Of a DNA stretch of 64,000 bases, positions 49,558 to 51,711 are shown piece after piece; the first letter of the stretch is position 1, and the number at the start of each line of letters is the position of its first letter. The notes under the pieces are model-generated. The model did no database searches. It was not told the origin of the DNA and saw nothing but the letters and a program-made list of their open reading frames with translations. The DNA is from a bacterium. GTDB lineage: Bacteria; UBA8248. The stretch spans positions 2,272,001-2,336,000 of the forward strand of contig OZ244799.1 in the NCBI GenBank assembly GCA_965219955.1, read 5' to 3'. A program made the translations under genes and the position numbers.

Positions 49558-49616
49558 TGGGAGAGAAGCGGGCAAGGAAGCGGACGTGGTGAACTAACAA
49601 AACCCAGCAAAAAGAC

Positions 49617-49646
49617 ACCCCCGGGGCATGAGCCTCGGGGGTTTTT
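49617..49646 (+). terminator. Rho-independent terminator after moeB
   Basis: ACCCCCGGGGC-ATGA-GCCTCGGGGGT then TTTT. Confidence 0.75.
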
Positions 49647-49676
49647 CGCTTTTCACATAAATTCAAAATATTTTGC

Positions 49677-49705
49677 TTGACAATAATAATTATTTGACTC
49701 ATAGT
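49677..49705 (+). promoter_or_regulatory. Sigma70-type promoter of the retron locus
   Basis: TTGACA-17 nt-CATAGT with AT-rich upstream sequence. Confidence 0.55.
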
Positions 49706-49763
49706 TAGAAATATTGCAGCAGGGTGATTCGCCCTGTATGTTCTTTGACAATCCATCTTCGAG

Positions 49764-50113
49764 TTTGGTGTTTAGACTTCTATCCGACACCTCTCCAAGC
49801 ATTCGGCTTTTCTGGATGCTTGTGCTTGAAATTTAGGCTATGCCTAAAATCCAGTGTGAAAATTCCGGCACTGTGATTTCCCATCTATGCAGCGAATCCA
49901 AGACCTTAGGTTTCCTATTTACAGAAGCATCGGGCATTGGGTTATCGGTCACTCACAAAATGAAAAATGTATGGAGAGGGCGTTCGCACTATTAATGAAC
50001 ATTATAGGCGAACTAGCGAATGAGGGGGTCTTACGGTAGATCCCGCCAGTTTCTAATCAGAAACAAACAAAGGACAAAGGAGGTGATTAGATGAAGAAAA
50101 TTTAAACACCAAA
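49764..50113 (+). ncRNA. Putative retron msr-msd non-coding RNA
   Basis: 11-bp arms TTTGGTGTTTA (49764-49774) and TAAACACCAAA (50103-50113); G49775 in TTAG context; several internal hairpins; upstream of a retron-type RT. Confidence 0.65.
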
Positions 50114-50152
50114 ATCTCCGCCCGACAACTTTATCCATAGGAGAAAAAATAA

Positions 50153-50464
50153 ATGGATAAAATCGGTAACTCGAAGGTGGGCCTTGAGAGGGCCGTAAAA
50201 GATGTTATCAAAGTCGCTTATAAGCTACTTCGGCAACAAAACGACCCTCTTATGGCGGGGACTTCAAAGGTAGTTCGTTGTCGTCTCAAGCAGCTTGAGC
50301 GTCAGTTGCAAAAAAAGCGAACGAATCCATTTCCCAAAAAAGAACTGGATAAAATCGCTAGAGAAGCAACTGACACGATAAGCTATCTTATGAAGTCCCT
50401 CATTCGTTACTTATTTTCCGCAATTTACAATTGCGAGTTATTGAAAGCATGGAAAACAAATTAG
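50153..50464 (+). CDS. Small basic helical protein, candidate retron effector
   Basis: 103 aa; AGGAG SD; overlaps the HTH gene. Confidence 0.65.
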   Translation: MDKIGNSKVGLERAVKDVIKVAYKLLRQQNDPLMAGTSKVVRCRLKQLERQLQKKRTNPFPKKELDKIAREATDTISYLMKSLIRYLFSAIYNCELLKAWKTN

Positions 50465-50754
50465 GCAACACACTAAAAGTAATTAGAGTAGCTGCAGGTA
50501 TAAACCAGTCCGCTATGGCAAAAAAGCTGGAGATTACCCAAAACTATTTGTCTTTGGTCGAAAACAATCACAAAGAACCGAGCTTATCATTCTTGAAAAA
50601 GTTTGCCTCTAGTTTCGATATTCCTCTTGGGTATTTTTTATGGCTAGCCTTAGACAAGCAAGAAAATATGGAGGAAAAAGAATTGCGTGACAAGATGGAA
50701 ATACTTCTCAAAGAAATACTAATAGGCAGAAGAAGTGAAAATGTTACAGGATAA
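50449..50754 (+). CDS. XRE/Cro-family HTH protein
   Basis: LKVIR-x3-GINQ-x2-MA-x2-LEITQNYLSLVENN-x-KEPS. Confidence 0.9.
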   Translation: MENKLGNTLKVIRVAAGINQSAMAKKLEITQNYLSLVENNHKEPSLSFLKKFASSFDIPLGYFLWLALDKQENMEEKELRDKMEILLKEILIGRRSENVTG

Positions 50755-51688
50755 ACAGCCTAATCTAAAATCATCCTGGAATTTACGGACTTTGAAAGAT
50801 TTGTCACGCCTTCTAGGTGTAAAAGAAGAAATCATAAACGAGATTTCGAACTCAGCACACTTGATGTACCGGTCGCGAGAAGAACCAAAGAAATCTGGAG
50901 GAGCAAGACCAATAGATGTCCCTGGCAATAGATTAAAATGGATACAATCGACGATTAACAAGCGTTTATTGCAAAGGACCCTCGTCCATAAATCTGCAAT
51001 GGGTGGTATTCGAGGCAAACGATTAAAAGACAATGCTCAAAAACACGTTGGGAAAAATTTAGTTGCCAAATTCGATTTAGAAAATTACTTTTCGAATATT
51101 TCTCATCAGCAAGTCTACGATCGATTTTGCTCCATTGGATGCTCCCCTGATGTGGCTAGGGTTCTCACCAAACTAACAACATATAAAGGAAGAGTTCCAC
51201 AAGGAGCACCCACAAGTACTATGCTTGCGAATTTAGTAGCTGCATTTGCAAGAGACTGCAATAGTTTCAATGCAAGAATTGTTTCACTGGCTAAAAAGCG
51301 TCGTGCAACCGCTACTACTTGGGTTGACGATGTAACAATGTCAGGCCCGCGTAATATTCAAAAAGAAGCCAATACTTTCGAGAAAATTGCTAGGCAAAGT
51401 GGCTTCATACCAAACACTGATAAAAATGAATTCATAGGTAACAACCAACAACAATTCGTCACTGGAGCAGTTGTCAATCAAAAAGTAAGCGCCTCAAAAA
51501 AATACAGGAAAGCAATACGCGCGGAACTCCATCAACTCAAAGTTCATGGCCCAAGAAATATTTGTAAAGAGCCGATCAAAAAAATAAAGGAGCAGCTTCG
51601 GGGCAAAATTGCACACATAGACAACTTAAACCCCGAGCATGGTGAAAAACTTCTAAAAGAATTCAGCGCTATCGACTGGGACTCTTAA
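50741..51688 (+). CDS. Retron-type reverse transcriptase
   Basis: KKSGGAR-x-I, LKWIQ, NAQKH (region X NAxxH), FDLENYF, PQGAPTS, WVDD, VTG (region Y). Confidence 0.93.
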   Translation: MLQDKQPNLKSSWNLRTLKDLSRLLGVKEEIINEISNSAHLMYRSREEPKKSGGARPIDVPGNRLKWIQSTINKRLLQRTLVHKSAMGGIRGKRLKDNAQKHVGKNLVAKFDLENYFSNISHQQVYDRFCSIGCSPDVARVLTKLTTYKGRVPQGAPTSTMLANLVAAFARDCNSFNARIVSLAKKRRATATTWVDDVTMSGPRNIQKEANTFEKIARQSGFIPNTDKNEFIGNNQQQFVTGAVVNQKVSASKKYRKAIRAELHQLKVHGPRNICKEPIKKIKEQLRGKIAHIDNLNPEHGEKLLKEFSAIDWDS

Positions 51689-51711
51689 AAGTCACCAACC
51701 ATAAGACTGAA

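What the first reader, a model, noticed from the sequence alone, without database searches (positions are those of the whole stretch)
50052..50105. Near-perfect Shine-Dalgarno driving a four-codon ORF (MKKI*) inside the retron RNA
Seen: AAGGAGGTGAT (50077-50087), an 11-nt complement of the canonical 16S 3' end, precedes ATG AAG AAA ATT TAA (50091-50105). The stop codon is the first three bases of the 3' arm. An 8-bp stem (50052-50059 with 50084-50091) partly masks the site. Inference: a ribosome loaded here would compete with a1/a2 pairing and RT priming, while reverse transcription would cover or destroy the site. This could be a translation-sensing switch or a ribosome-standby relay for the effector gene 47 nt downstream. 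I know of no described retron uORF like this.
Basis: partly seen in the sequence, partly recalled or inferred. Interest (0 to 1): 0.72.

Follow-up and report, generated by a model that had tools for sequence, protein, structure and literature searches.

The report
Conserved ribosome-site mimic in retron RNA
The strong ribosome-binding look-alike is a real, highly conserved piece of a Type VI retron's regulatory RNA, but the four-codon reading frame behind it occurs only in the closest relatives and is probably a by-product.

Summary
The sequence facts are right. AAGGAGGTGAT lies at 50077-87, ATG AAG AAA ATT TAA at 50091-105, and the TAA opens the 3' inverted repeat.

The locus is a Type VI retron with the order small protein (SP), HTH, RT. 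PADLOC gives HTH_VI 2e-25 and RT_VI 6.5e-66. It sits in a low-GC island.

The SD-like block is not chance. GGAGGTGA is invariant in 8 of 8 loci of this SP family (RT identity down to 45%), and it is the longest invariant run in the RNA alignment.

In 6 of 8 loci a second copy of the block is the SP toxin's own RBS.

A start codon at working distance followed by the mini-ORF is found only in the window, in L001, and in two near-identical metagenome contigs. The peptide varies: MKKI, MKKT, MKIT. The AUG is base-paired.

Best reading: the block is one half of a direct-repeat riboregulator of the kind proposed for Retron-Vpa2, and the mini-ORF is incidental.

A translated switch is not excluded.

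The parts
49677..49705 (+). Promoter-like site, TTGACA-17-CATAGT.
   Evidence: scores it 10 of 12. The same TTGAC..TATAGTTAGA context stands before the RNA in L001-L006 and L093. Function is not shown.
49719..49748 (+). Conserved 5' stem-loop (GCAGGGTG-ATT-CGCCCTGT) followed by TCTTTGA.
Evidence: [quoted passage not shown]
49754..49764 (+). 5' strand of a long-range helix (P1) that pairs with SP codons 6-9 (50169-50179).
   Evidence: The helix is predicted in 8 of 8 loci, with both strands changed between loci (CAUCUUCGAGU/ACUCGAAGGUG here, GUUUUUGGAGA/UCUCCAAAAAC in L004).
49764..49776 (+). a1, the 5' arm of the inverted repeat, followed by G49775.
   Evidence: pair probabilities 0.94-1.0 for the core. 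G49775 is A in contig X5, so it is a doubtful branch point.
49777..49787 (+). 5' strand of a lineage-specific helix extension that pairs with the AUG and first codons of the mini-ORF. It ends with G49786, the better conserved candidate branching G.
   Evidence: L001 has CAUCUG opposite CAGAUG. There is no counterpart in L002-L006, where the a2 arm follows the SD block directly or after a few bases.
49788..49794 (+). Pyrimidine tract CACCUCU (16S-like 'anti-SD') that pairs with the SD-like block.
   Evidence: One search gives pair probabilities 0.83-1.0. An equivalent tract pairs with the block in 8 of 8 loci. The tract varies (CUCACCUCC, CUCACCCCUC, CUUACCCCCC and others) while the block does not.
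50049..50064 (+).
   Evidence: One search gives probability 0.99. The X5/X9 change at 50056 falls in its loop.
50076..50087 (+). SD-like block AAAGGAGGTGAT ('repeat 1'), a 12-nt complement of the organism's 16S 3' end.
   Evidence: AGGAGGTGA is invariant in 7 of 7 aligned loci and GGAGGTGA in 8 of 8.
50091..50105 (+). Four-codon ORF, ATG AAG AAA ATT TAA.
   Evidence: It is also present as ATG AAA ATA ACT TAA in L001 and with ATT>ACT in X5, X9 and X8. It is absent in L002-L006 and L093.
50101..50113 (+). a2, the 3' arm of the inverted repeat.
50130..50161 (+). Hairpin that holds the SP start codon in its stem (TTTATCCAT/ATGGATAAA) and the SP's own weak SD, AGGAG 50139-43 ('repeat 2', decayed), in its loop.
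   Evidence: pair probabilities 0.79-0.98. The SD:16S duplex is -7.3 kcal/mol.
50153..50464 (+). SP, 103 aa, the candidate small toxic effector.
   Evidence: No Pfam or PADLOC family matches it. Homologues lie in the same position in L001-L006 and L093. Toxicity is inferred from Vpa2 and Sen3, not tested.
50449..50754 (+). Cro/C1-type HTH protein.
   Evidence: Pfam HTH_3 1.1e-11 and PADLOC HTH_VI 2.1e-25.
50735..51688 (+). Retron reverse transcriptase. Its catalytic box reads WVDD.
   Evidence: RVT_1 4.3e-15. PADLOC RT_III-A 2.3e-68 and RT_VI 6.5e-66.

Best explanation
The 54-nt stretch is the 3' strand of the long basal helix of a Type VI retron 'hybrid RNA', a single transcript that carries both the reverse-transcription template and the coding sequence of the small toxic protein SP.

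The Shine-Dalgarno look-alike is a conserved cis-element of that RNA, not the RBS of a gene.
- It is held in a duplex with a 16S-like pyrimidine tract that lies just 3' of the candidate branching G.
- By canonical retron geometry it lies within the first 1-25 template nucleotides. Its cDNA copy would therefore give the msDNA a 16S-like anti-SD 5' end.
- In relatives a second copy of the same block is the toxin's own RBS.

I therefore read the block as 'repeat 1' of a direct-repeat riboregulator that links reverse transcription to toxin translation. This is the kind of device proposed, but not yet dissected, for Retron-Vpa2. Whether the link represses or releases translation is open.

The four-codon ORF sits in a helix extension peculiar to the window's sublineage and is most likely a by-product. 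In the resting RNA its AUG is base-paired, and opening the site costs about 17 kcal/mol.

What is shown: the conservation, the predicted pairings and the repeat. What is inferred: the template start, the msDNA 5' end and the regulatory role.
For: Locus identity. PADLOC gives HTH_VI 2.1e-25 and RT_VI 6.5e-66, and the gene order is SP-HTH-RT. The island has GC 0.40 against 0.61 for the genome.

Structure. The 371-nt RNA folds at -118.6 kcal/mol (z -5.2, 0 of 100 shuffles as good). The 741-nt RNA folds at -247.8 (z -11.8, 0 of 20). In both folds 50079-50118 pairs with 49761-49794.

Conservation.
- AGGAGGTGA forms 9 consecutive invariant columns in 7 of 7 aligned loci. That is the longest invariant run in 638 columns.
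- GGAGGTGA is also present in L093, making 8 of 8 loci, at RT identity 45-84%.

Pairing partner.
- In 8 of 8 MFE folds the block pairs with the 5' tract (P paired 0.61-1.0).
- The tract varies and leaves A-C mismatches in L002, L003 and L005, while the block never changes. The block is therefore constrained beyond pairing.

Second copy.
- It serves as the SP RBS in 6 of 8 loci (L002-L006 and L093).
- It is the only msd/riboregulator direct repeat of 7 nt or more shared by L002-L006 (5 of 5).

Literature.
- For Vpa2 the authors describe conserved 7-nt direct repeats. One lies at the msDNA 5' end and one in the riboregulator, and the msDNA 5' end is needed for SP translation (Discussion read).
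- For Sen3 relatives the SP RBS is described as sequestered in the basal stem (section read).

The mini-ORF looks incidental.
- It is found in 2 of 8 loci plus X5/X9.
- The peptide varies between them.
- Its segment differs at 5 of 17 positions between the window and L001 (my count), against 22% for the whole RNA.
- The AUG is paired (probability 0.91-0.98), and opening 50076-50105 costs 17 kcal/mol.
Against: - In the window and L001, the two loci under study, the second repeat has decayed to AGGAG and AGGA. Yet repeat 1 stays perfect, so the repeat logic alone does not explain its invariance here.
- Vpa2's repeats are described as lying in loops and as distinct from the RBS. Here repeat 1 is paired in 8 of 8 folds, and repeat 2 is the RBS itself.
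- An anti-SD msDNA end pairing with the RBS would be expected to block SP translation, not release it. That is the opposite of the Vpa2 result.
- An ATG at the ideal 7-nt spacing appears exactly in the sublineage whose SP SD has weakened. ATG, TAA and the 4-codon length survive in three diverged sequences. This fits a gain of function.
- The branch point, template start and msDNA have not been observed. All structures are thermodynamic predictions on 8 related, non-independent sequences.
- I could not see Fig S4 of the Vpa2 preprint because supplements are closed. I therefore cannot say whether its 7-nt repeat is this motif.
Confidence: 0.55

Rival explanations
1. The mini-ORF is a translated minigene. 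A ribosome that loads at 50077-93 and stops at 50103-05 melts the a1/a2 helix. Ribosome availability would then gate RT priming, or open the RNA for SP translation 47 nt downstream.
For: - The 12-nt block is a perfect 16S complement (-20.3 kcal/mol) with 7-nt spacing.
- The stop codon lies inside a2.
- ATG, TAA and the 4-codon length are kept in L001 and X5/X9 despite 1-5 substitutions inside the ORF.
- The ORF appears in the sublineage where the SP's own SD is weakest.
- A two-codon minigene that raises toxin translation in cis is documented for axe-txe (abstract read).
Against: - There is no ATG, GTG or TTG 3-11 nt after the block in the other 6 of 8 loci.
- The block and the AUG are paired with probability 0.83-1.0, and opening them costs 17 kcal/mol.
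- The 5' partner strand is transcribed about 300 nt earlier, so the site should be masked as soon as it is made (inference).
- The peptide is not conserved.
- By my arithmetic, keeping 6 bases at about 25% divergence has a chance probability near 0.2. TAA and AUG are also held by pairing.
- 84 of 1,346 GGAGG+ATG sites in this genome carry ORFs of 6 codons or fewer.
Confidence: 0.15
2. The block is a ribosome standby or decoy site in all members, with or without a start codon. 30S subunits would dock on it when the basal helix opens, for instance during priming, and would then be handed to the SP RBS or kept from it.
For: - The block's sequence, and not merely its pairing, is invariant in 8 of 8 loci. 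It matches the 16S tail over 8-12 nt.
- It stays perfect where repeat 2 has decayed.
- Standby sites upstream of structured toxin RBSs are known for tisB. This is recalled and was not checked here.
Against: - Standby sites are single-stranded, whereas this one is paired in 8 of 8 folds.
- The block lies 59-89 nt from the SP start.
- There are no expression or binding data.
Confidence: 0.12
3. This is an origin story rather than a function. SD + ATG + MKKI is a decayed duplicate of the SP start (SD + ATG + MDKI). It was left behind when the RBS, once buried in the basal stem, was duplicated downstream.
For: - ATGAAGAAAATT and ATGGATAAAATC share 9 of 12 bases (my count).
- SP N-termini in relatives begin MK, ME or VK.
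- L009 has a single SD paired to its 5' arm, while its relative L010 has two copies.
- In L093 and L002 the SP frame is open back to the block.
- In Sen3 relatives the SP RBS lies in the basal stem.
Against: - The region is A-rich, so a 9-of-12 match is weak evidence.
- L001's mini-ORF resembles its SP start less.
- No similarity beyond the SD is seen between the two copies in L002-L006.
Confidence: 0.1
4. The block is only the complement of a pyrimidine tract needed for the helix. Its likeness to an SD is coincidental.
For: It is always paired in the folds.
Against: - The pyrimidine strand varies and tolerates mismatches, while the purine strand is invariant.
- A second copy is the SP RBS in 6 of 8 loci.
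- The exact 11-mer has 6 copies in 4.28 Mb.
Confidence: 0.04

Closest known systems
Retron-Vpa2 hybrid RNA and its proposed direct-repeat riboregulator (Zhang et al., bioRxiv 10.1101/2025.10.22.683967; abstract, sections 7-10 and found passages read)
   Same: - SP-HTH-RT operon.
- One structured transcript carries the msr-msd and the SP coding sequence.
- The SP start is sequestered in a stem-loop.
- Long-range inverted repeats tie the arms together.
- A short direct repeat stands near the msDNA 5' end and again before SP.
   Different: - Here the repeat is the SD sequence itself, 8-11 nt and complementary to 16S.
- Repeat 1 is predicted paired, not in a loop.
- Repeat 2 is the RBS in relatives and has decayed in the window.
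- A start codon and a 4-codon ORF follow repeat 1 in this sublineage.
- The SP family is different: no homologue beyond 8 loci and 5 database proteins.
- Nothing has been tested experimentally.
Retron-Sen3 / cl2075 Type VI retrons (Garcia-Rodriguez et al., bioRxiv 10.64898/2026.04.27.721009; abstract and sections 25, 27-29 read)
   Same: [quoted passage not shown]
- An SD-type sequence lies in the basal stem.
- Long-range pairing reaches into or around the SP coding sequence.
- The SP coding sequence is under RNA-structure constraint.
   Different: - In Sen3 the sequestered SD is the SP's own RBS. Here the basal-stem SD is a separate upstream copy, and the SP has another.
- Membership of the window's SP in cl2075, cl2760, cl3272, cl3897 or 'Large' could not be tested because no cluster sequences were in hand.
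axe-txe minigene mg2 (Kedzierska & Potrykus 2021, PMC8708949; abstract and outline read)
   Same: A very short ORF with its own RBS lies upstream of a toxin gene in the same transcript. It is reported to act in cis on toxin translation and to depend on distance and frame.
   Different: - That ORF has two codons and is experimentally translated.
- It lies within an antitoxin gene of a type II TA operon, not in a reverse-transcription template.
- Here translation is unproven and the site is buried.
Ribosome standby site of tisB, and lambda bar minigenes
   Same: - tisB: an upstream ribosome-contact site serves a structured toxin RBS.
- bar: very short ORFs behind strong SDs can sequester peptidyl-tRNA.
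   Different: - Standby sites are single-stranded.
- bar toxicity needs limiting peptidyl-tRNA hydrolase.
- Neither involves a retron.

Membership tests
Type VI retron (SP-HTH-RT) | Retron-type reverse transcriptase | tested here: met
   RVT_1 4.3e-15. There are 48 PADLOC retron RT models with hits, the best at 2.3e-68. The catalytic box is WVDD.
Type VI retron (SP-HTH-RT) | RT belongs to the Type VI clade rather than another type | tested here: inconclusive
   RT_III-A scores 228.8 bits against 220.5 bits for RT_VI. No tree was built.
Type VI retron (SP-HTH-RT) | Cro/C1-type HTH gene just upstream of, or overlapping, the RT gene | tested here: met
   PADLOC HTH_VI 2.1e-25 and Pfam HTH_3 1.1e-11. 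The ORFs overlap at 50735-50754.
Type VI retron (SP-HTH-RT) | Small accessory protein gene upstream of the HTH gene | tested here: met
   A 103-aa ORF at 50153-50464 overlaps the HTH start. It is conserved in the same position in L001-L006 and L093. Toxicity and cluster identity were not tested.
Type VI retron (SP-HTH-RT) | Structured upstream RNA with a 5' stem-loop and terminal inverted repeats, continuous with the SP coding sequence | tested here: met
   z -5.2 and -11.8. The same three stacked long-range helices are predicted in 8 of 8 loci. The only hint of transcription is a 2,130-nt contig in an RNA-seq library. No Rfam family matched: 7 matches, all below gathering score.
Type VI retron (SP-HTH-RT) | RT-dependent ssDNA (msDNA) and phage defence | not testable with these tools
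   This needs expression and msDNA sequencing.
Vpa2-type direct-repeat riboregulator | Two copies of a short motif, one at the template's 3' end (msDNA 5' end) and one just before SP | tested here: inconclusive
   It is met in 6 of 8 loci, with 6-11 nt shared. In the window only AGGAG (5 nt) remains of copy 2, and in L001 only AGGA. The template start is inferred.
Vpa2-type direct-repeat riboregulator | Repeats lie in loops | tested here: not met
   Copy 1 is paired in 8 of 8 MFE folds. In the window copy 2 is in a hairpin loop (P paired 0.04).
Translated regulatory uORF / minigene | SD and start codon at working distance, with an in-frame stop | tested here: met
   7-nt spacing, ATG, 4 codons, TAA.
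Translated regulatory uORF / minigene | ORF conserved among homologues | tested here: not met
   It is present in 2 of 8 loci plus near-identical X5/X9. It is absent in L002-L006 and L093.
Translated regulatory uORF / minigene | Ribosome access or evidence of translation | tested here: inconclusive
   The site is predicted buried (P 0.83-1.0; 17 kcal/mol to open). There are no ribosome data.
Ribosome standby site | Single-stranded docking region upstream of a structured RBS | tested here: not met
   The block is paired in all folds. The feature definition is recalled.

The most novel reading that the evidence does not exclude
The invariant 16S-complementary block would be a working interface with the translation apparatus.
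- Its cDNA copy would give the msDNA a 5' end that mimics the 16S anti-SD tail. That end could mask the toxin's RBS, or other SD sequences.
- The identical RNA tract beside the branching G would be released when the template is copied.
- In the window's sublineage the RNA copy would have gained a start codon and become a translated four-codon minigene. Ribosome loading and RT priming would then exclude each other, making this a retron that reads the cell's translational state.
Probability: 0.15. Interest if true: 0.8.

Novelty: new variant of a known kind. Interest (0 to 1): 0.45.

Why it matters
Type VI retrons are the one retron group in which msDNA has been reported to switch toxin translation on (Vpa2). 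In a second member control is post-translational (Sen3). The RNA elements responsible have not been defined.

This lineage offers an unusually legible case:
- an invariant 8-12-nt 16S complement at the start of the template;
- a 16S-like tract next to the likely branch point;
- in most members, the same block again as the toxin's RBS.

That gives a direct hypothesis, testable by mutation, for how reverse transcription and translation talk to each other.

It also gives a natural pair of variants to compare, one with a mini-ORF and a decayed second repeat and one without. If the block is only structural, the finding is an ordinary new member of Type VI.

Tried and rejected
It has probability 0.0 in the ensemble. 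It is broken by 50056 A>T in X5/X9 with no listed compensation, and L001 does not keep it. Rejected.

Mini-ORF as the broken start of SP. It lies in another frame, and the SP frame is closed by TAA 50150-52. Rejected for the SP frame.

Rfam search. There were 7 matches, all far below gathering score, and none was a retron family.

Searches for more close relatives.
- Genome contigs gave 1 locus out of 72 pattern hits.
- 61 related genomes gave 2, including the window's own.
- 51 genomes of the class gave 3, including the window's own.
- Viral contigs gave 7 loci at 21-32% RT identity, none of this family. A motif scan there found 0.
- Plasmids searched by tblastn with SP gave no match.

Limits.
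- Run X6 gave nothing when laid.
- For X8, 28 of its 40 substitutions were not listed, so its SD and ATG state is unknown apart from 50101 T>C.
- X9 is nearly the same sequence as X5 and is not independent.

Other Type VI-like loci with an HTH before the RT (13 loci; 11 of them viewed, i.e. all but L018 and L032).
- They carry other SP families.
- Only L010 shows the two-copy SD arrangement.

Covariation statistics. I did not compute them with the count of structure pairs. MAFFT misaligned the 5' tract, and the RNA exceeds the 400-column limit for a covariance model. I report per-locus helices instead.

Search for another conserved 7-nt direct repeat that might equal Vpa2's. None is shared across loci apart from the SD block. 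The preprint's Fig S4 is in closed supplements.

Literature search. It was badly framed (any 2 of 6 terms) and returned unrelated uORF papers. Searches repeated it properly. Their hits were unrelated: the listed titles concern immunology, cancer and crop editing, none bacterial retrons.

Tools not used: protein structure, complex prediction, the atlas and the representative-protein search. They would not bear on the RNA question.

Full report
OBSERVATION

- AAGGAGGTGAT lies at 50077-87.
- ATG AAG AAA ATT TAA lies at 50091-105.
- The TAA opens an 11-nt perfect inverted repeat, 50103-13 against 49764-74.
- The next gene starts 47 nt after the stop.
- 50052-59 and 50084-91 are perfectly complementary.

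The organism's own 16S gene ends GGATCACCTCCTTTCT.
- 50076-87 is therefore a 12-nt perfect complement.
- The predicted duplex is -20.3 kcal/mol. The median for the 20 nt before the first ATG of 2,497 long ORFs is -5.9, and 7 of those ORFs reach -17 or lower.
- The exact 11-mer occurs once in the window and 6 times in the 4.28-Mb genome.

The motif is real and extreme. A short ORF behind GGAGG is not unusual in itself: 84 of 1,346 GGAGG+ATG sites in this genome have an ORF of 6 codons or fewer.

WHAT THE LOCUS IS

Three ORFs lie downstream.
- A 103-aa ORF with no Pfam or PADLOC family (50153-50464).
- A Cro/C1 HTH (Pfam HTH_3 1.1e-11; PADLOC HTH_VI 2.1e-25).
- A retron RT (RVT_1 4.3e-15; PADLOC RT_III-A 2.3e-68 and RT_VI 6.5e-66).

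This is the SP-HTH-RT layout of Type VI retrons, described in two preprints.
- Retron-Vpa2: I read the abstract, sections 7-10 and found passages.
- Retron-Sen3: I read the abstract and sections 25 and 27-29.

The block of about 2 kb has GC about 0.40 in a 0.61 genome. It lies between a ThiF/rhodanese gene and a convergent metallo-beta-lactamase-fold gene. A promoter-like TTGACA-17-CATAGT (10 of 12) stands at 49677-705.

STRUCTURE

- The 371-nt RNA folds at -118.6 kcal/mol (z -5.2; 0 of 100 shuffles as good). The 741-nt RNA including SP folds at -247.8 (z -11.8; 0 of 20).
- The whole of 50079-50118 (SD block, mini-ORF and a2) is the 3' strand of a helix of roughly 36 bp whose 5' strand is 49761-49794.
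- Pair probabilities are 0.83-1.0 for GGAGGUG with CACCUCU (49788-94), 0.91-0.98 for the AUG, and 0.94-1.0 for the a1/a2 core.
A 5-bp hairpin, 50049-53 with 50060-64, takes its place at probability 0.99.
- Forcing 50076-50105 open costs 17 kcal/mol.
- The SP start codon sits in a 9-bp hairpin (50130-38 with 50153-61). A modest SD, AGGAG, lies in the loop (P paired 0.04; duplex -7.3 kcal/mol).
- A further helix joins 49754-64 to SP codons 6-9.

RELATIVES

DNA for seven other loci of the same SP family was obtained.
- L001 has an RT 84% identical and the same chromosomal neighbours.
- L002-L006 come from metagenome contigs. Their RTs are 45-50% identical and their SPs 36-45% identical.
- L093 comes from another genus of the same family. 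Its RT N-terminus is 51% identical over 168 aa.

The family is rare.
- 5 database proteins, including the window's own, match SP.
- 2 of 61 related genomes and 3 of 51 genomes of the class hold it, the window's own included in both counts.
- Nothing was found in plasmids, and nothing close in viral contigs.

Three contigs from public runs were laid on the window.
- The contigs are 92-96% identical to the window.
- X5 is DNA and X8 comes from an RNA-seq library; both are labelled sponge metagenome. X9's library kind and source label are coded.
- X9 is nearly the same sequence as X5.

THE SD-LIKE BLOCK IS THE MOST CONSERVED ELEMENT OF THE RNA

- In the 7-sequence alignment AGGAGGTGA (50078-86) forms 9 consecutive invariant columns. 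That is the longest invariant run among 638 columns; the next is TCTTTGA with 7.
- L093 keeps GGAGGTGA, so the core is invariant in 8 of 8 loci.
- In all 8 MFE folds the block pairs with a pyrimidine tract 60-77 nt from the 5' stem-loop (P paired 0.61-1.0).
- That tract varies: CACCUCU, CGCCUCU, CUCACCUCC, CUCACCUUC, CUCACCCCUC, CUCACCCCCC, CUUACCCCCC. It leaves an A-C mismatch in three loci, yet the block never changes. Pairing alone therefore does not explain the conservation.
- A G stands 0-1 nt 5' of the tract in 7 of 8 loci. In L004 and L006 it is a single bulged G between two helices. This G is a better candidate for the branching G than G49775, which is A in X5.
- By the usual retron geometry, the block then lies within the first 1-25 template nucleotides, whichever G is used. 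This is established knowledge, not tested here.

A SECOND COPY

- In L002-L006 and L093 a second copy lies 59-89 nt downstream and is the SP's RBS. It reads AAAGGAGGTGAT, AGGAGGTGAA, AAGGAGGT or GGAGGT.
- It is the only direct repeat of 7 nt or more between the template part and the pre-SP part that L002-L006 share (5 of 5).
- In the window and L001 this second copy has decayed to AGGAG and AGGA.

The Vpa2 authors describe conserved 7-nt direct repeats, one at the msDNA 5' end and one in a 'riboregulator' before SP. They show that the msDNA 5' end is needed for SP translation. I could not see their Fig S4 because supplements are closed, so I cannot say whether the motif is the same.

THE MINI-ORF IS NOT CONSERVED

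- An ATG 7 nt after GGAGG with 4 codons occurs in the window and in L001 (ATG AAA ATA ACT TAA).
- In X5 and X9 the only changes in 50052-50118 are 50056 A>T, 50073 G>A and 50101 T>C, which turns ATT into ACT. All 38 of X5's substitutions are listed.
- X8 shows 50101 T>C, but 28 of its 40 substitutions were not listed.
- In the other six loci: L004 and L006 have no start codon 3-14 nt after the block. L002 and L003 have only CTG. L005 has an ATG at 13 nt (9 codons). L093 has a GTG at 12 nt in frame with SP.
- The ORF sits in a helix extension, 49777-87 paired with 50086-100, that L002-L006 lack. In them a2 follows the block directly or after a few bases.
- Both strands of this extension differ between the window, L001 and X5.
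- The 17-nt 3' segment differs at 5 positions between the window and L001 (my count), against 22% for the whole RNA. The ORF region is therefore no better conserved than its surroundings.
- ATG and TAA are both held by pairing.

MECHANISM

My best reading (about 0.55) has two parts.
- The block is repeat 1 of a direct-repeat riboregulator that couples reverse transcription to SP translation.
- In the resting RNA the block closes the priming helix with a 16S-like tract.

Once copied, it would yield two strands that leave the branch G with the same anti-SD sequence, the msr RNA and the msDNA 5' end. Both could pair with repeat 2.

Points against this reading:
- The direction of the effect is open. 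Masking the RBS would repress, whereas Vpa2's msDNA activates.
- The repeats are not in loops.
- The second repeat has decayed in the very locus under study while the first stays perfect.

A standby or decoy role for the block in all members (about 0.12) and a relic of a duplicated SP start (about 0.1; ATGAAGAAAATT against ATGGATAAAATC, 9 of 12) are further options.

COMPARISON AND NOVELTY

- The locus meets the positional and family tests for a Type VI retron. The RT's clade is not settled by PADLOC scores, and msDNA is untested.
- As a regulatory uORF it fails the conservation test.
- As a Vpa2-type riboregulator it meets the two-copy test in relatives and fails the 'loops' test.
- No paper in the searched library links retrons with uORFs or minigenes, or with an SD inside the msd.

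I rate it a new variant of a known kind, with interest 0.45. The mini-ORF is probably ordinary. The invariant 16S-complementary block, together with its 16S-like partner and its duplicate at the toxin RBS, is a concrete, untested handle on an open question in Type VI retron biology.

LIMITS

- All structures are predictions.
- The eight loci are related and few.
- One tool (search of earlier findings) and the supplements were closed.
- The contigs of several closer and intermediate relatives could not be fetched.

Noticed in passing
window 49600-51700: The retron is a block of about 2 kb at GC about 0.40 in a 0.61 genome. It sits between a ThiF/rhodanese gene and a convergent MBL-fold gene. 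The same insertion site is used in genome G020 (L001). Only 1 of the 22 other species of the genus searched carries it.
   Followed up: partly
window 51305-51316 (RT residues around 191-198): The RT catalytic box reads T-W-V-D-D. The 29-sequence RT alignment has W[IV]DD, not the YADD quoted for Vpa2.
   Followed up: no
window 49769-50480 versus run X8: A 2,130-nt contig from an RNA-seq library labelled sponge metagenome carries a relative about 92% identical. One end of the contig lies at 49769, just inside a1, and it runs on through SP. A 75-nt stretch (49857-49931) is replaced by diverged sequence of the same length. Contigs cannot show transcript ends.
   Followed up: no
L005 652-708: Here the SD block is followed by an ATG at 13 nt. 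It opens a 9-codon ORF whose TAA lies just upstream of the second SD copy.
   Followed up: partly
L093 (minus strand), L002: The SP reading frame is open back to the first SD block, with a GTG at 12 nt in L093 and a CTG at 8 nt in L002. A longer SP isoform is conceivable there.
   Followed up: no
L009 versus L010: These are two related, more distant Type VI-like loci (RT about 32% identical to the window). L009 has a single SD paired to a 5' CUCCUUUC tract. L010 has two GGAGGTGA copies about 95 nt apart, plus a 5' UUCACCUCC. This hints that the two-copy layout arose by duplication more than once.
   Followed up: partly
window 49719-49748: The conserved 5' stem-loop followed by a U-rich stretch is also scored as terminator-like. 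The TCTTTGA after it is invariant in 7 of 7 loci, and similar words follow the stem-loop in other Type VI-like loci.
   Followed up: no
window 50014-50047 and loci L002-L006: A conserved UAACGA(A/G)U word, followed by a GC-rich hairpin and GCCGCC, precedes the SD block in all loci. Other Type VI-like loci carry AACGGTT-like words in the same region, twice in L031. This might be the 7-nt repeat of the Vpa2 preprint, but I could not check.
   Followed up: no
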